DNA of 4,186 nt, from the NCBI GenBank assembly GCA_000004985.1, contig GG739192.1. The stretch is one strand, 5' to 3'. Source of the stretch: Naegleria gruberi. Taxonomy: Eukaryota. Of the stretch, positions 7 through 4,186 are shown piece after piece; position 1 is the stretch's first letter, and every line of letters starts with the position of its first letter. The notes under the pieces are model-generated. The model saw nothing but the letters and a program-made list of their open reading frames with translations. It made no database searches and was not told the origin of the DNA. A program made the position numbers and the translations under genes.

Positions 7-1329
7 ATGGTTGAAAACACTCTTTTCCAACCACGACAAGAACCAATTCATAAACGTTCAACAACTACTAGTAGAACATTCAATGTTCAAGGTGATAATA
101 ATTTATTAATTCAAAATCCAAATGTTTTACCTGAAGATGAAGAACAAGTTTATGAAGAATTAACTATATTTGATACACCACCTAAATCTAATTTATTATT
201 AAAACAACAACATCAATTTGATGATAATATTTTATATAATAGAAGTAATACATTTCTAAATGAAGATATAACTGATATTAATGAAAATTTAAATTTAAAT
301 AGTAAACAATTTAATTTATTTTATAAAAATAATATTTTATATATTTTATTAACATATTATTTATTTATTTGTGTTAAATTTCATAATAATACATTAATAT
401 ATCCAAATTCAATTTCTAATTTTTATTTATTTTTTAAAGATCAAATATTAACACCTATTTACAATTATGGAATTCCTAAAGATTTCAATATAATTATTTT
501 ATTAAGTATTTCAAATATTATTAATTTATTAAATGTATTTAATTATAATTTATATTTAAATTGGTTATTAAATTTATCAAGTATTTTAATTTTACATTTT
601 ACTAATTTATTTCCAATTACGGAATTTTATGAACATTATATTTCTTTATTTACAGTTACTATTTTATTAAATAATTTTATTAAAGTTAAGGAATTTAATC
701 ATTATAATTTATTTAGTATTTTATCAATTAGTATTTTATTTAAATATTATCAATTAAATGATTTTTCTTTATTAGGAAATTTAAATATTATTTATAATTT
801 ATTAATTTGTAATTTTGTATTTTTAAATAATATTAAATTATCAATCAATAGATTAGCATTTTTAAATACATTAAATTTATTAAATATGAATTTTAATGAA
901 ATTAATATTTTATCTATTTGTATATTTTTATTAGGTTACTATATATGGACAATATCAAATTTACAATATAAATATTTTAGAAATTATATTTCTTTTAATA
1001 ATACTGCTACTACTAATATTAAATCATTTCCATATTTTTTATTTAATTCTACAAAAACACCTAGATTTATATCTTCCAAAGATGGAAATTATATTTTAGC
1101 TGATAGTGGATGGTTAACATGTAGAAATATTGATTTATTTGGTGAATTATTAATTATATTTTCTATTTTTATTTTAAATATTAATATTATTTCGTTTATT
1201 ATATTTATTTGTAATGTTATTGATATTATTAATTTGGAAAATGAAAGAAATAATTTAAATATGAATAATAGTGATTATATTAAATATTGTAATTTAGTTC
1301 CTTTTAGATTGGTACCTTTTATTTATTAG
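7..1329 (+). CDS. Complete 440-aa multi-pass membrane protein. It is a divergent member of the sterol reductase (ERG4/ERG24, lamin-B receptor, TM7SF2, DHCR7) family, and the canonical signature residues are substituted.
   Basis: A 1,323-nt ORF stays open in extremely AT-rich DNA, where random sequence would hit TAA/TAG/TGA within tens of codons. The ATG at 7 sits in an A-rich context (taaaaaATGg) with an in-frame TAA at 1-3, and the stop is TAG at 1327-1329. The N-terminal ~100 aa are hydrophilic, followed by about 330 aa of strongly hydrophobic I/L/F/N/Y-rich segments consistent with multiple TM helices. The C-terminus '...ILADSGWLTCRNIDLFGEL...NERNN...DYIKYCNLVPFRLVPFIY' aligns by eye with the sterol-reductase C-terminus as I recall it for lamin-B receptor and ERG24: 'LLVSGWWGFVRHPNYLGDL...HREARDE...EKYCQRVPYRIFPYIY'. 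The SGW, R, G[DE]L, KYC and VP[FY]R[IL]xP[FY]IY-end positions are shared. Family membership is from recollection of those sequences and was not searched. Confidence 0.6.
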   Translation: MVENTLFQPRQEPIHKRSTTTSRTFNVQGDNNLLIQNPNVLPEDEEQVYEELTIFDTPPKSNLLLKQQHQFDDNILYNRSNTFLNEDITDINENLNLNSKQFNLFYKNNILYILLTYYLFICVKFHNNTLIYPNSISNFYLFFKDQILTPIYNYGIPKDFNIIILLSISNIINLLNVFNYNLYLNWLLNLSSILILHFTNLFPITEFYEHYISLFTVTILLNNFIKVKEFNHYNLFSILSISILFKYYQLNDFSLLGNLNIIYNLLICNFVFLNNIKLSINRLAFLNTLNLLNMNFNEINILSICIFLLGYYIWTISNLQYKYFRNYISFNNTATTNIKSFPYFLFNSTKTPRFISSKDGNYILADSGWLTCRNIDLFGELLIIFSIFILNINIISFIIFICNVIDIINLENERNNLNMNNSDYIKYCNLVPFRLVPFIY

Positions 1330-1336: not shown

Positions 1337-1414
1337 ATTGTATTTGTAATTTATATTATATTAGATTTCATGATTAGTTTATCAAATATGGTTTATCAAC
1401 TAATTTTATGTGCT

Positions 1415-1485
1415 CGTCTCGTGGTGTAATGGTAGCATAGTGGACTTTGAATCCATTGACGGAGGTTCGATTCCTCCCGAGACGG
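1415..1485 (+). tRNA. tRNA-Gln, anticodon UUG, nuclear type, 71 nt including the discriminator
   Basis: The cloverleaf was folded by hand. The acceptor stem is CGTCTCG (1415-1421) paired with CGAGACG (1478-1484), a perfect 7-bp helix. The D stem is GTGT/GCAT around the D loop AATGGTA, which carries GG. The anticodon stem is GTGGA/TCCAT with loop CTTTGAA, giving anticodon TTG at 1447-1449. The variable loop is 4 nt (TGAC). The T arm is GGAGG-TTCGATT-CCTCC and the discriminator is G1485. The stretch TGGTGTAATGGT-AGCA...TGGACTTTGAATCCA closely resembles human tRNA-Gln-TTG as I recall it. Confidence 0.88.
1422..1474 (+). promoter_or_regulatory. Internal RNA polymerase III promoter of the tRNA: A box 1422-1432 (TGGTGTAATGG) and B box 1464-1474 (GGTTCGATTCC)
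   Basis: The B box matches the GGTTCGANTCC consensus exactly. The A box is a reasonable fit to TRGCNNAGTGG. Both sit at the canonical tRNA positions 8-19 and 52-62. Confidence 0.6.
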
Positions 1486-1500
1486 TAACGTGGCGAGCCA

Positions 1501-2847
1501 TNNNNNNNNNNNNNNNNNNNNNNNNNNNNNNNNNNNNNNNNNNNNNNNNNNNNNNNNNNNNNNNNNNNNNNNNNNNNNNNNNNNNNNNNNNNNNNNNNNN
1601 NNNNNNNNNNNNNNNNNNNNNNNNNNNNNNNNNNNNNNNNNNNNNNNNNNNNNNNNNNNNNNNNNNNNNNNNNNNNNNNNNNNNNNNNNNNNNNNNNNNN
1701 NNNNNNNNNNNNNNNNNNNNNNNNNNNNNNNNNNNNNNNNNNNNNNNNNNNNNNNNNNNNNNNNNNNNNNNNNNNNNNNNNNNNNNNNNNNNNNNNNNNN
1801 NNNNNNNNNNNNNNNNNNNNNNNNNNNNNNNNNNNNNNNNNNNNNNNNNNNNNNNNNNNNNNNNNNNNNNNNNNNNNNNNNNNNNNNNNNNNNNNNNNNN
1901 NNNNNNNNNNNNNNNNNNNNNNNNNNNNNNNNNNNNNNNNNNNNNNNNNNNNNNNNNNNNNNNNNNNNNNNNNNNNNNNNNNNNNNNNNNNNNNNNNNNN
2001 NNNNNNNNNNNNNNNNNNNNNNNNNNNNNNNNNNNNNNNNNNNNNNNNNNNNNNNNNNNNNNNNNNNNNNNNNNNNNNNNNNNNNNNNNNNNNNNNNNNN
2101 NNNNNNNNNNNNNNNNNNNNNNNNNNNNNNNNNNNNNNNNNNNNNNNNNNNNNNNNNNNNNNNNNNNNNNNNNNNNNNNNNNNNNNNNNNNNNNNNNNNN
2201 NNNNNNNNNNNNNNNNNNNNNNNNNNNNNNNNNNNNNNNNNNNNNNNNNNNNNNNNNNNNNNNNNNNNNNNNNNNNNNNNNNNNNNNNNNNNNNNNNNNN
2301 NNNNNNNNNNNNNNNNNNNNNNNNNNNNNNNNNNNNNNNNNNNNNNNNNNNNNNNNNNNNNNNNNNNNNNNNNNNNNNNNNNNNNNNNNNNNNNNNNNNN
2401 NNNNNNNNNNNNNNNNNNNNNNNNNNNNNNNNNNNNNNNNNNNNNNNNNNNNNNNNNNNNNNNNNNNNNNNNNNNNNNNNNNNNNNNNNNNNNNNNNNNN
2501 NNNNNNNNNNNNNNNNNNNNNNNNNNNNNNNNNNNNNNNNNNNNNNNNNNNNNNNNNNNNNNNNNNNNNNNNNNNNNNNNNNNNNNNNNNNNNNNNNNNN
2601 NNNNNNNNNNNNNNNNNNNNNNNNNNNNNNNNNNNNNNNNNNNNNNNNNNNNNNNNNNNNNNNNNNNNNNNNNNNNNNNNNNNNNNNNNNNNNNNNNNNN
2701 NNNNNNNNNNNNNNNNNNNNNNNNNNNNNNNNNNNNNNNNNNNNNNNNNNNNNNNNNNNNNNNNNNNNNNNNNNNNNNNNNNNNNNNNNNNNNNNNNNNN
2801 NNNNNNNNNNNNNNNNNNNNNNNNNNNNNNNNNNNNNNNNNNNNNNN
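1501..2847. other. Assembly gap: a 1,347-nt run of N with a sized estimate. It is unsequenced and should not be read as biological sequence.
   Basis: The run of n is contiguous and 1,347 long rather than the conventional 100, which suggests a scaffold gap with an estimated length. It begins 16 nt after the tRNA discriminator and ends exactly at the start of an (AAT)n tract inside the xdh reading frame. Confidence 0.95.
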
Positions 2848-2849
2848 AT

Positions 2850-4186
2850 GATAATAATAATAATATTAATGATATTAATGAAAATAATATTAATGAAAAT
2901 AATAATGATAATAATAATAATAATAATGATAATAATATTAATAATATTAATAATAATAATAATTCAAAAGTTAAAAGTTTAATTATTGGATCATCTATTA
3001 CAATAAGTAATTTAGAAGAATTTATTAAAAAACAAATTAAAATATTACCAAAATATCAATCACAAAGTTTAGAATGTATTTTACATCAAACAAAATATTT
3101 TGCATCTACACCTATTAGAAATGCAGCATGTTTAGCAGGTAATATTATAACTGCTAGTCCTGCAAGTGATTTAAATCCATTATGGGTTGCATTGGATTGT
3201 AATTTAAAAATTATGCAAATGGATGGTCATGTTAAAACTATTCCATTTAAGGAATTTTTTACTGGATATAGACAAGTACAATTAAAAAAGAGTGAATTAT
3301 TAATACATTTAGAAATACCATTACCACAATTAGATAATAATAATAATACAATACAATTAGTTAAATCATTTAAACAATCTAAAAGAAGAGAAGATGATAT
3401 TGCCATTGTTACATCTGCTATGAAAATTAAATTATTTAAAAATAATAATTTAAATAATATAAATAATAATAATTTAAATAATATTAATAATAATAATTCT
3501 AATTCTAATAATAATAATATAAATAATAATAATATAAATAATAAATATTATATTCAAGATATAAAATTAGTATATGGTGGTATGAATGCATATACAGTAT
3601 CAGCAGAAAAGACACGTCAATATTTAATAGGTAAAGAATTAAATGATGAAATATTTAATGAATCAATTGAATATTTAATTAAAGATTTACCATTAGCTTC
3701 AAATGCACCTGGTGGAATGATTGAATATAGAAAAACACTTTCATTATCTTTTTATTATAAATTTTATTTATTTTTATTAAAAGAATTAAAAATAAGAGAA
3801 TTAAATCAAGATGAAGAATCAGTTTTATTAAATCATCATTACATTCCAAGAATATATCCAAAAGGTGAACAATTTTATTCAAATACAATTGAAATTGGAC
3901 AATCTATTGGAAAATCAATTTTACATCAATCATCAAATATTCAAGTAACAGGTGAAGCTAAATATGTAGATGATATACAACCTATATATGGACAATTATA
4001 TGCAGCATTAGTACAATCAAGTAAACCATTAGCATTAATTAAATCAATTTCATATGATAAAGCATTATCAATGAAAGGTGTAATTGGTTATGTTGATTAT
4101 AGAGATGTTAAAGGACATAATAGAGTTGGTGCTGTTATACCTGATGATGAAGAATTATTCATTTCATTGAAAACTACTTGTATTGG
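2850..4186 (+). CDS. xdh: Partial xanthine dehydrogenase/oxidase CDS, internal fragment. It covers the C-terminal half of the FAD-binding domain, the linker, and the start of the Mo-pterin (a/b hammerhead) domain. It is open at both ends, cut by the gap on the 5' side and by the window end on the 3' side.
   Basis: Frame 3 is uninterrupted from the gap edge to position 4186. The translation carries XDH motifs in the correct order against human XDH as I recall it. '[27 protein letters not shown]' matches '[24 protein letters not shown]'. 'FKQSKRREDDIAIVTSAM' matches 'FKQASRREDDIAKVTSGM'. 'LVYGGMNAYTVSAEKT' matches 'LCYGGMANRTISALKT'. 'SNAPGGMIEYRKTLSLSFYYKFYL' matches '[24 protein letters not shown]'. 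'VTGEAKYVDDIQ...LIKSISYDKALSMKGVIGYVDYRDVKGHN...KTTCIG' matches 'ASGEAVYCDDIP...[29 protein letters not shown]...KVTCVG'. No intron-like interruption appears in the resolved part. Confidence 0.92.
2853..2963 (+). repeat. In-frame Asn-rich low-complexity tract of (AAT)n type, about 37 codons: NNNNINDINENNINENNNDNNNNNNDNNINNINNNNN. It lies within xdh, just upstream of the conserved 'IIGSSITIS' FAD-domain segment.
   Basis: An AAT/GAT/ATT codon run read in the xdh frame, with no stop codon. This is the typical Dictyostelium poly-Asn insertion. It abuts the 3' edge of the assembly gap. Confidence 0.8.
3441..3542 (+). repeat. Second in-frame Asn-rich insertion in xdh, 34 codons: NNNLNNINNNNLNNINNNNSNSNNNNINNNNINN. 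It sits between the conserved 'RREDDIAIVTSAM' and 'YGGM' segments of the FAD domain.
   Basis: Codons read directly in frame 3. The corresponding human segment, as recalled, is a short non-repetitive loop, 'RVLFKPGTTEVQELAL', so this is a lineage-specific low-complexity expansion. Confidence 0.8.

What the first reader, a model, noticed from the sequence alone, without database searches (positions are those of the whole stretch)
1486..2847. The sized gap starts 16 nt after tRNA-Gln and must hide both the tRNA 3' control region and about 0.9 kb or more of xdh 5' coding sequence
There are two competing readings of what is missing. (a) In Dictyostelium, tRNA genes are the landing pads of tRNA-targeted retroelements. 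TRE3 elements insert roughly 100 bp downstream, and TRE5 and DGLT-A insert upstream. Such repeats classically cause assembly gaps, so a gap that opens right after a tRNA suggests an unresolved retroelement or its remnant. (b) The xdh frame is open at the gap's 3' edge. By homology, about 300 residues of XDH precede the first resolved motif: the two [2Fe-2S] domains and the first half of the FAD domain. That is at least 0.9 kb of CDS, plus the ATG and promoter, that must lie inside a gap estimated at 1.35 kb. If the size estimate is right, there is room for only about 0.4 kb of non-xdh sequence, which is far too little for a full TRE3. So either the gap is mostly unique but unclonable xdh sequence, or its length is underestimated, or xdh's 5' end is elsewhere and the gene is disrupted. 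The gap's 3' edge falls exactly at an (AAT)n tract, a typical sequencing-failure point.
Basis: inference. Interest (0 to 1): 0.5.

Follow-up and report, generated by a model that had tools for sequence, protein, structure and literature searches.

The report
Assembly gap hiding Naegleria xdh start
The run of Ns is an ordinary sized gap in a tiny two-contig scaffold of the Naegleria gruberi draft genome (not Dictyostelium), and comparison with related amoebae indicates that it is filled almost entirely by the missing front end of the xanthine dehydrogenase gene, not by a mobile element.

Summary
A 1346-base N-run (1502-2847) begins 15-16 nt after a genuine tRNA-Gln(UUG). It ends at an imperfect (AAT)n tract that is in frame with a xanthine dehydrogenase (XDH) reading frame open to the window end.

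The Dictyostelium premise is wrong. The window is a 4186-bp scaffold of the JGI Naegleria gruberi assembly. Its deposited protein is a chimeric gene model spliced across the gap. The closest XDHs in about 1.8 billion representative proteins are N. fowleri and N. lovaniensis (54%, about 60% outside the poly-Asn inserts), then Willaertia magna (46-51%). All others are 43% or less.

The point matching the first homology-supported residue is residue 328 in N. fowleri, 373 in N. lovaniensis, about 339 in W. magna and about 290 in bovine XDH. N. fowleri and W. magna also share two introns at identical positions in that part. The missing xdh 5' part is therefore about 0.9-1.2 kb of genomic DNA. That leaves about 0.15-0.45 kb for the tRNA trailer and terminator and the xdh promoter.

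Reading (a), a TRE-type retroelement, is not: TREs are confined to dictyostelids and a full element would not fit.

This is an assembly artefact of low interest. The gap could not be closed in silico.

The parts
7..1329 (+). Upstream neighbour: a 440-codon ORF with hydrophobic, Asn/Ile/Leu-rich sequence. It is an orphan protein. The stop codon lies about 85 nt before the tRNA.
   Evidence: Open frame in 15% GC DNA. No Pfam family at E<=0.01. The only hit among 5.8 billion proteins is the chimeric model P0001. No match in the N. fowleri or W. magna xdh loci.
1415..1485 (+). Cytosolic-type tRNA-Gln, anticodon UUG.
   Evidence: ARAGORN 1414-1486. Rfam RF00005 1415-1485, 68.8 bits against a gathering score of 29, full-length model match with a perfect 7-bp acceptor stem.
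1486..1501 (+). Resolved tRNA 3' trailer: 15-16 nt, 60% GC, with no T-run. The Pol III terminator is therefore not resolved and should lie inside the gap.
   Evidence: Direct reading and composition.
1502..2847 (.). Sized assembly gap of 1346 N. Inferred content, in order: the rest of the tRNA trailer with its T-run terminator, a short spacer and xdh promoter (about 0.15-0.45 kb), then xdh exon 1, intron 1, exon 2, intron 2 and the 5' part of exon 3 (about 0.9-1.2 kb). These encode the two [2Fe-2S] domains, the Cys-rich linker and the first quarter of the FAD domain.
   Evidence: N-run. Homology arithmetic against bovine, N. fowleri, N. lovaniensis and W. magna XDH. Gene structures of the N. 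fowleri and W. magna genes. The content is inferred, not observed.
2850..2963 (+). Imperfect (AAT)n tract, in frame with xdh and encoding an Asn-rich stretch of 38 residues. It corresponds to a short surface loop in relatives (N. fowleri 'AVYNGDSGEAS', W. magna 'ITENNNAKE'). It is also the likely point where reads or assembly failed.
   Evidence: TRF period 3, 37.7 copies, 78% matches. Translation. Alignments.
2964..4186 (+). xdh coding sequence covering the FAD domain from PF00941 position 55, CO_deh_flav_C and the start of the a/b hammerhead. It runs off the window end, so the molybdopterin domains are absent from the scaffold.
   Evidence: Pfam E-values 7e-27, 2e-23 and 2e-14. PDB bovine XDH, E=7e-51. 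N. fowleri XDH E=2e-158 and N. lovaniensis E=5e-161.

Best explanation
The N-run is a mate-pair-sized gap between the two contigs of a 4.2-kb scaffold of the Naegleria gruberi draft genome. It is not a biological feature.

The locus is compact: an orphan membrane-protein gene, about 85 nt of spacer, a tRNA-Gln(UUG) gene, a short spacer, then the xanthine dehydrogenase gene, all on the + strand.

The gap hides the following (inferred):
- the rest of the tRNA trailer with its Pol III T-run terminator;
- a short xdh promoter and 5' UTR, together about 0.15-0.45 kb;
- about 0.9-1.2 kb of xdh: exon 1 (N-terminus and first [2Fe-2S] domain), a short intron after ...SQ|CGFC..., exon 2 (second [2Fe-2S] domain), a short intron after ...CTGY..|I..., and the start of exon 3 (Cys-rich linker and first quarter of the FAD domain).

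The assembly probably broke here because the DNA is extremely AT-rich and low in complexity (GC 15-22%, GC3 about 4%). The 3' edge is an (AAT)n tract and the 5' edge is a multicopy tRNA gene. Both make Sanger reads and clone coverage fail. This cause is an inference.
For: Identity of the record. Protein P0001, 'predicted protein, partial [Naegleria gruberi]', sits on a contig of exactly 4186 bp. It maps to window 7-301, 2971-3629 and 3783-4178.

Lineage. An exhaustive HMMER search of 1.84 billion representatives ranks three proteins first: P0001 itself, Willaertia magna XDH (P0038, 51%), and an ORF (P0015, 60%) from contigs L001/L002. Neighbouring ORFs on L001/L002 are exact matches to N. fowleri FDP41_005370-005375, so those contigs are N. 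fowleri. The window fragment is 53.8% identical to N. fowleri XDH and 54.5% to N. lovaniensis XDH over 420 aligned columns, with E-values of 1e-158 and 1e-161. It is 46.5% identical to W. magna. Every other protein compared pairwise is 42% or less, and the exhaustive list tops out at 43%.

Size budget. Fragment residue 30 (window 2937) aligns with residue 328 of N. fowleri and 373 of N. lovaniensis, and fragment residue 28 with residue 337 of W. magna (so residue 30 is about 339). Fragment residue 44 aligns with bovine residue 296. The genomic distance from the ATG to that point is 1206 nt in N. fowleri and about 1140 nt in W. magna. Each includes two introns at identical positions: 127 and 98 nt in N. 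fowleri, 71 and 55 nt in W. magna. The gap is 1346 nt.

Gap edges. A tRNA and an (AAT)n tract.

Native composition. An N. gruberi XDH-family paralog on a 304-kb main scaffold (P0179, NAEGRDRAFT_73166) has the same Asn/Ile/Lys-rich make-up: FYMINK fraction 0.40 against 0.36-0.45 for the window XDH.
Against: Nothing inside the gap is observed, so its content is inferred from orthologs.

If N. gruberi carries Asn-rich insertions in the missing part at the rate seen in the resolved part (about 75 extra residues in 445), plus N. fowleri-sized introns, almost no room remains for a spacer and promoter. The gap size would then have to be an underestimate.

The accuracy of the 1346-nt estimate and the correctness of the scaffold join cannot be checked here.

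Gene order upstream of xdh is not conserved. The neighbour in N. fowleri is an epimerase gene on the minus strand, and in W. magna an amidohydrolase gene. Neither has a tRNA there. Synteny therefore gives no independent support for the tRNA-xdh adjacency.

The window's GC3 of about 4% is far below what a 33% GC genome suggests. I could not fetch any other N. gruberi DNA to confirm that such loci are normal there.
Confidence: 0.8

Rival explanations
1. The gap hides a tRNA-targeted retroelement or its remnant, which is the reader's reading (a). This would require the gap size to be underestimated, or the insert to be only a solo LTR or short fragment lying between the tRNA and the xdh promoter.
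For: The gap opens 15-16 nt after a tRNA gene. Repeats are a classic cause of assembly gaps. The resolved trailer is oddly GC-rich for this locus. A remnant of up to about 0.15-0.45 kb cannot be excluded by the size budget.
Against: The organism is a heterolobosean, not a dictyostelid. tRNA-gene targeting by TRE elements is described as unique to dictyostelids (PMC5006619). No reverse-transcriptase, endonuclease or LTR-like sequence is present in the resolved flanks. Pfam finds only XDH domains in the xdh fragment and nothing in the upstream ORF. A literature search turned up no report of tRNA-targeted elements in Naegleria. A full element of about 5 kb (my recollection) would not fit beside 0.9-1.2 kb of xdh in 1346 nt.
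Confidence: 0.05
2. The scaffold join is wrong or the xdh gene is disrupted. The two contigs would not be neighbours (a chimeric clone, a collapsed repeat or a haplotype mix-up), so the xdh 5' end lies elsewhere and the gap size is meaningless.
For: The scaffold is tiny: 1501 + 1339 resolved bases, probably a handful of Sanger reads. It is isolated from the main assembly. The xdh 3' half is also missing from it. Gene order upstream of xdh is not shared with N. fowleri or W. magna.
Against: Both contigs share the same extreme composition and codon usage (GC3 about 4%) and the same strand orientation. The estimated gap is just the size needed for the missing xdh part, which would be a coincidence if the join were spurious. 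The resolved 445 codons are intact and conserved, so there is no sign of a pseudogene.
Confidence: 0.08
3. The scaffold is not N. gruberi DNA. It would be a contaminant from another very AT-rich eukaryote: a dictyostelid, or an unsampled amoeba of the Naegleria clade.
For: GC 15-22% and GC3 about 4%, against 33% for the N. gruberi genome (PMC6892926). Poly-Asn tracts and Dictyostelium-like codon preferences (TTA, AAT, CAA, AGA, GGT, CCA). The N. gruberi assembly is known to contain some contaminant proteins, 60 removed by ContScout and mostly bacterial (PMC10831095). The upstream ORF has no homolog anywhere.
Against: The XDH is closest to the two Naegleria species and next to Willaertia. No dictyostelid protein ranks above 43% in an exhaustive search, which rules out a dictyostelid origin for this gene. 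A bona fide N. gruberi main-scaffold protein, P0179, shows the same amino-acid skew. An origin in another Naegleria-clade organism cannot be excluded, but it would not change what the gap contains.
Confidence: 0.07

Closest known systems
Naegleria fowleri xanthine dehydrogenase FDP41_005373 (XP_044560092.1, 1451 aa) and N. lovaniensis C9374_005873 (1496 aa)
   Same: These are the best matches in the databases: 54% identity over 420 aligned columns, about 60% outside the Asn-rich inserts. Domain order is the same and the match is collinear from window residue 30 to the window end.
   Different: The window gene has two Asn-rich insertions of about 38 residues each. It has GC3 of about 4% against 30-34% in N. 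fowleri. It lacks the N. fowleri intron before ...LVYGGM. Its upstream neighbours are different. Its first 320-370 or so residues and its molybdopterin half are not in the scaffold.
Willaertia magna XDH (KAL9651081.1, 1423 aa)
   Same: This is the next-closest named relative, at 46-51% identity. It shares two intron positions in the [2Fe-2S] region with N. fowleri. Its genome is AT-rich at 25% GC.
   Different: It has no Asn-rich loop expansion and a different upstream gene. A tRNA-Gln(UUG) lies about 9 kb downstream of xdh, not upstream, and its sequence is quite different from the window's tRNA.
Bovine and human xanthine oxidoreductase (PDB 1FO4, 1N5X, 2CKJ)
   Same: FAD and hammerhead domains align, with E about 7e-51. 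Window residue 44 equals bovine residue 296.
   Different: Identity is only about 35-40%. These structures serve as the reference for domain boundaries only.
Dictyostelid tRNA-gene-targeted retroelements (TRE3, TRE5, DGLT-A, Skipper-2)
   Same: The only shared property is the position of the unresolved DNA, immediately downstream of a tRNA gene.
   Different: The host lineage is wrong. No element sequence is resolved. A full element does not fit in the residual space. TRE targeting is reported as unique to dictyostelids (PMC5006619).

Membership tests
Eukaryotic xanthine dehydrogenase/oxidase (XOR) family | FAD-binding domain (PF00941) followed by CO_deh_flav_C (PF03450) | tested here: met
   PF00941 E=6.9e-27, but only profile positions 55-169 of 170. 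PF03450 E=2.3e-23. Aligns to bovine XDH 296-441 and 447-662.
Eukaryotic xanthine dehydrogenase/oxidase (XOR) family | a/b hammerhead domain (PF01315) after the FAD domain | tested here: met
   PF01315 E=1.9e-14, profile positions 1-79 of 110, cut by the window end.
Eukaryotic xanthine dehydrogenase/oxidase (XOR) family | Two N-terminal [2Fe-2S] domains (PF00111 and PF01799) | not testable with these tools
   They would lie inside the N-run 1502-2847. They are present in the N. fowleri and W. magna orthologs.
Eukaryotic xanthine dehydrogenase/oxidase (XOR) family | C-terminal molybdopterin-binding domains (PF02738 and PF20256) | not testable with these tools
   They lie beyond the 3' end of the 4186-bp scaffold. 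They are present in the orthologs.
Dictyostelid tRNA-targeted retroelements (TRE3, TRE5, DGLT-A) | Host is a dictyostelid | tested here: not met
   The record is deposited as N. gruberi. The XDH is closest to N. fowleri, N. lovaniensis and W. magna. TRE targeting is described as unique to dictyostelids (PMC5006619).
Dictyostelid tRNA-targeted retroelements (TRE3, TRE5, DGLT-A) | Element sequence (ORF1/ORF2 with endonuclease and RT, or LTRs) about 100 bp downstream or about 50 bp upstream of the tRNA gene | tested here: inconclusive
   Upstream of the tRNA there are about 85 nt of AT-rich spacer and then the stop codon of a host ORF, so no TRE5- or DGLT-A-type insertion is present. Downstream, only 15-16 nt are resolved before the gap.
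Dictyostelid tRNA-targeted retroelements (TRE3, TRE5, DGLT-A) | Room for a full-length element of several kb | tested here: not met
   1346 nt minus 0.9-1.2 kb of xdh leaves about 0.15-0.45 kb. This depends on the gap-size estimate being right.
Eukaryotic cytosolic tRNA-Gln gene | Cloverleaf with UUG anticodon scoring above the Rfam tRNA threshold | tested here: met
   68.8 bits against a gathering score of 29, full-length model match. ARAGORN calls Gln(ttg).
Eukaryotic cytosolic tRNA-Gln gene | Pol III terminator (T-run) shortly downstream | tested here: inconclusive
   There is no T-run in the 15-16 resolved trailer bases. The rest is hidden in the gap.
Sized scaffold gap (assembly artefact) | Uninterrupted run of N of non-round length that joins two contigs in one orientation and is flanked by repeat or low-complexity sequence | tested here: met
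   1346 N. A tRNA lies at the 5' edge and an (AAT)n tract at the 3' edge. The deposited gene model spans it as an 'intron'.

The most novel reading that the evidence does not exclude
The scaffold may be a fragment of an unusual, extremely AT-biased compartment. Its GC3 is about 4% and its coding GC 15-22%, within or alongside a 33% GC Naegleria gruberi genome. Two things could explain this. One is a native compartment that resists cloning and holds the organism's only canonical xdh. The other is DNA of an unsampled, hyper-AT-rich amoeba of the Naegleria clade that was co-sequenced with NEG-M. In either case the gap could hide something besides xdh, such as a second tRNA gene or a short mobile-element remnant.
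Probability: 0.1. Interest if true: 0.4.

Novelty: not a real feature. Interest (0 to 1): 0.1.

Why it matters
The consequences are mainly practical.

- The public N. gruberi record carries a chimeric protein model, built across this gap, that fuses an unrelated membrane protein to XDH. It also deletes a conserved XDH segment. This can mislead orthology and domain-architecture surveys.
- Canonical XDH of N. gruberi survives in the assembly only as this fragment. Metabolic reconstructions could therefore wrongly score purine catabolism as absent or partial.
- Composition alone (AT-richness, poly-Asn) misassigned the lineage. Homology corrected it.

There is no new biology in the gap itself.

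Tried and rejected
In-silico gap closure failed.
- An exact-product look-up of the upstream ORF and of P0001 in the assembly index found nothing.
- A look-up of the N. gruberi paralog P0179 also found nothing, so no other N. gruberi DNA could be read.
- A scan of JGI metagenome contigs for relatives of the XDH fragment found none.
- A scan of the same contigs for the exact tRNA 3' half found none.

Dictyostelium origin was considered because of composition and codon usage. It was rejected on XDH similarity ranking.

Synteny was tried as independent support for the tRNA-xdh adjacency. It is not conserved in N. fowleri or W. magna.

I compared the window tRNA-Gln with the W. magna tRNA-Gln(UUG). 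They are too different to be informative.

I considered that the GC-rich trailer might start a second tRNA. Only about 12 bases are available and the register would overlap the tRNA-Gln 3' end, so this cannot be tested.

I considered that xdh might start downstream of the gap. This is rejected. Homology to N. fowleri residue 328 onward begins at window residue 30, the first in-frame Met is about 120 residues further on, and the ATG at 2848 is out of frame.

I considered that 2850-2963 might be intronic rather than a poly-Asn loop. It cannot be excluded, because AG acceptors exist at 2969-2970 (the one the JGI model used) and at 2976-2977. However, N. fowleri and W. magna have no intron there. 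Either way the conclusion is unchanged.

Full report
WHAT IS IN THE WINDOW

The window has two resolved blocks, 1-1501 and 2848-4186, separated by one run of exactly 1346 N at 1502-2847.

The left block holds a 440-codon ORF (7-1329, + strand) and about 85 nt of AT-rich spacer. It also holds a tRNA-Gln(UUG). ARAGORN places the tRNA at 1414-1486. Rfam's tRNA model places it at 1415-1485 with 68.8 bits against a threshold of 29. The Rfam register gives a perfect 7-bp acceptor stem and a canonical U8.

Only 15-16 trailer bases (AACGTGGCGAGCCAT, 60% GC, no T-run) precede the gap.

The right block begins with an imperfect period-3 array (2851-2963, unit ATA/AAT, 37.7 copies, 78% matches). That array is in frame with a 445-codon open frame running to the window end. 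The frame carries FAD_binding_5 (profile positions 55-169 of 170), CO_deh_flav_C and the first 79 positions of the a/b hammerhead domain. It aligns to bovine xanthine dehydrogenase with E = 7e-51, and window residue 44 matches bovine residue 296.

There are two caveats. The ATG at 2848 is out of frame. An (AAT)n tract is open in two frames by construction, so homology-supported coding starts only at about 2937-2964.

WHERE THE SEQUENCE COMES FROM

The top database hit, P0001, is named 'predicted protein, partial [Naegleria gruberi]' and lies on a contig of exactly 4186 bp.

P0001 maps to window 7-301, 2971-3629 and 3783-4178. It is a chimeric gene model. It splices the first 98 codons of the upstream ORF onto xdh through an 'intron' that swallows the rest of that ORF, the tRNA gene and the whole gap. 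A second false intron removes 51 conserved codons (...PGGMIEYRKTLSLSF...).

The window is therefore a tiny two-contig scaffold of the JGI N. gruberi draft assembly. The non-round N-run is a mate-pair-sized scaffold gap. That last point is an inference from standard assembly practice.

IS IT REALLY HETEROLOBOSEAN, NOT DICTYOSTELID?

The composition looks like Dictyostelium. GC is 15% in the left gene and 22% in xdh, GC3 is about 4%, there are poly-Asn tracts, and the preferred codons are TTA, AAT, CAA, AGA, GGT and CCA.

Homology says otherwise.
- An exhaustive HMMER search of 1.84 billion representative proteins ranks three proteins first: P0001 itself, P0038 (51% identity) and P0015 (60%). 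Everything else is 43% or less.
- P0038 is Willaertia magna, the sister genus of Naegleria.
- P0015 and P0004 come from contigs L001/L002. Other ORFs on those contigs are exact matches to N. fowleri proteins FDP41_005370 to 005375. L001/L002 are therefore N. fowleri.
- Against the annotated full-length XDHs, the window fragment is 53.8% identical to N. fowleri (E = 2e-158) and 54.5% to N. lovaniensis (E = 5e-161) over 420 columns. It is 46.5% identical to W. magna.
- No dictyostelid protein appeared among the named top hits.

An N. gruberi XDH-family paralog, P0179 (NAEGRDRAFT_73166), sits on a 304-kb main scaffold. It is only 34-40% identical to the window XDH. It has the same Asn/Ile/Lys-rich make-up: FYMINK fraction 0.40, against 0.36 for the window XDH without its poly-Asn inserts and 0.29-0.31 for the N. 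fowleri, N. lovaniensis and W. magna XDHs. Such skew therefore occurs in bona fide N. gruberi genes.

I could not fetch other N. gruberi DNA to compare GC3 directly. Published genome GC values are 33% for N. gruberi and 25% for W. magna (PMC6892926).

WHAT THE GAP MUST CONTAIN

Window residue 30 (nt 2937) aligns with residue 328 of N. fowleri XDH and 373 of the N. lovaniensis model. Window residue 28 aligns with residue 337 of W. magna XDH, so residue 30 corresponds to about 339. In bovine numbering the point is about residue 290.

The resolved residues 1-38 are an Asn-rich expansion of a short loop (N. fowleri 'AVYNGDSGEAS', W. magna 'ITENNNAKE'). Essentially all of the preceding 290-370 residues are therefore missing. 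They comprise both [2Fe-2S] domains, the Cys-rich linker and roughly the first quarter of the FAD domain.

N. fowleri and W. magna share two introns at identical positions in this part, after ...SQ|CGFC... and after ...CTGY..|I.... The intron lengths are 127 and 98 nt in N. fowleri and 71 and 55 nt in W. magna. By parsimony they are expected in N. gruberi as well (inference).

The genomic distance from the ATG to the matching point is 1206 nt in N. fowleri and about 1140 nt in W. magna. A minimal intron-less core would need about 0.88 kb. Against a 1346-nt gap, about 0.15-0.45 kb is left for the tRNA trailer and terminator plus the xdh promoter and 5' UTR.

If Asn-rich inserts occur in the missing part at the rate seen in the resolved part, the gap estimate must be somewhat low.

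THE TWO READINGS OF THE FIRST STAGE

Reading (b), that the gap is mostly unique xdh sequence, is supported and made sharper.

Reading (a), a TRE3-type retroelement, fails on three counts.
- The host is not a dictyostelid. The literature describes tRNA-gene targeting by TRE elements as unique to dictyostelids, with TRE3 inserting about 100 bp downstream and TRE5 about 50 bp upstream (PMC5006619).
- A full-length element cannot fit.
- No element-like sequence is present in the resolved flanks, and the upstream flank is a host ORF only about 85 nt away.

A short remnant or solo LTR of a few hundred bases at most cannot be excluded. A literature search found no report of tRNA-targeted elements in Naegleria.

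WHY THE ASSEMBLY BROKE HERE (INFERENCE)

The 3' edge is an (AAT)n tract. The 5' edge is a multicopy tRNA gene. The whole locus is extremely AT-rich and low in complexity (23 TRF rows in 2.8 kb of resolved sequence). Such DNA is poorly represented in clone libraries and gives poor Sanger reads. That would also explain why this locus ended up as an isolated 4.2-kb scaffold lacking the xdh 3' half.

ATTEMPTS TO CLOSE THE GAP

Exact-product look-ups and two metagenome scans found nothing. Synteny gives no help. Upstream of xdh lies an epimerase gene in N. fowleri and an amidohydrolase gene in W. magna, both on the minus strand and without a tRNA.

REMAINING UNCERTAINTY

The gap content is inferred, not seen. 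The gap-size estimate and the scaffold join cannot be verified here. A misjoin (about 8%), a small extra insert (about 5%) or a non-gruberi origin (about 7%) remain possible. The ContScout study found 60 contaminant proteins in this assembly, mostly bacterial (PMC10831095).

VERDICT

This is an ordinary assembly gap in a draft Naegleria gruberi scaffold. It is not a biological feature. Its content is predictable as the 5' third of xdh plus a short spacer. Interest is low.

The useful by-products are the corrected lineage, the exposure of a chimeric deposited gene model, and the note that this locus has a remarkably extreme AT bias.

Noticed in passing
window 7-301, 2971-3629, 3783-4178: The deposited N. 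gruberi protein P0001 ('predicted protein, partial') is a chimeric gene model. It joins the first 98 codons of the upstream ORF to xdh through an 'intron' (302-2970) that contains the rest of that ORF, the tRNA-Gln gene and the whole gap. A second false intron (3630-3782) deletes 51 conserved XDH codons (...PGGMIEYRKTLSLSF...).
   Followed up: yes
window 7-1326 and 2964-4184: The AT bias is extreme. GC3 is about 4% in both genes and coding GC is 15% and 22%. AAT:AAC is 139:1, CAA:CAG 32:0 and GAA:GAG 40:0. The orthologous stretch has GC3 of 30-34% in N. fowleri and 16.5% in W. magna. The published GC of the N. gruberi genome is 33%. I could not obtain other N. gruberi DNA to see whether this locus is an outlier.
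   Followed up: partly
protein P0179 (NAEGRDRAFT_73166, N. gruberi 304-kb scaffold); not in the window: N. gruberi has a second, divergent XDH-family gene on a main scaffold. It is 34-40% identical to the window XDH and to the N. fowleri and W. magna XDHs. It is equally Asn/Ile/Lys-rich, and its model lacks the first [2Fe-2S] domain and part of the FAD domain. The canonical xdh ortholog seems to exist in the assembly only as this fragmentary scaffold.
   Followed up: partly
window 7-1329: The upstream ORF (440 aa, hydrophobic, 16% Asn, FYMINK fraction 0.50) is an orphan. It has no Pfam family and no homolog among 5.8 billion proteins apart from the chimeric P0001. It has no counterpart next to xdh in N. 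fowleri or W. magna. The C-terminal stretch 'SGWLTCRNIDLFGE' loosely recalls the sterol-reductase / ICMT-type motif. That resemblance is from memory only and was not tested.
   Followed up: partly
window 1414-1501: ARAGORN and Rfam disagree by one base on the tRNA register. ARAGORN gives U1.G72 with discriminator U. Rfam gives a perfect stem with discriminator G. The 15-16 nt trailer is 60% GC in a locus of 15-20% GC and has no Pol III T-run. This could be a low-quality read end or a real conserved flank.
   Followed up: partly
L001 9534-9660 and 9790-9887; L003 10406-10476 and 10606-10660; window 3427-3560: N. fowleri and W. magna xdh share two intron positions in the [2Fe-2S] region. N. fowleri has a further 46-nt intron immediately before ...LVYGGM. 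That intron is absent in the window, where the sequence is contiguous (...IQDIKLVYGGM) just after the second Asn-rich tract.
   Followed up: yes
L003 19769-23894 (W. magna): A small tRNA cluster (Gly-GCC, Gln-UUG, Gly-GCC) lies 5-9 kb downstream of the W. magna xdh. Its tRNA-Gln(UUG) differs substantially from the window's tRNA-Gln(UUG).
   Followed up: partly
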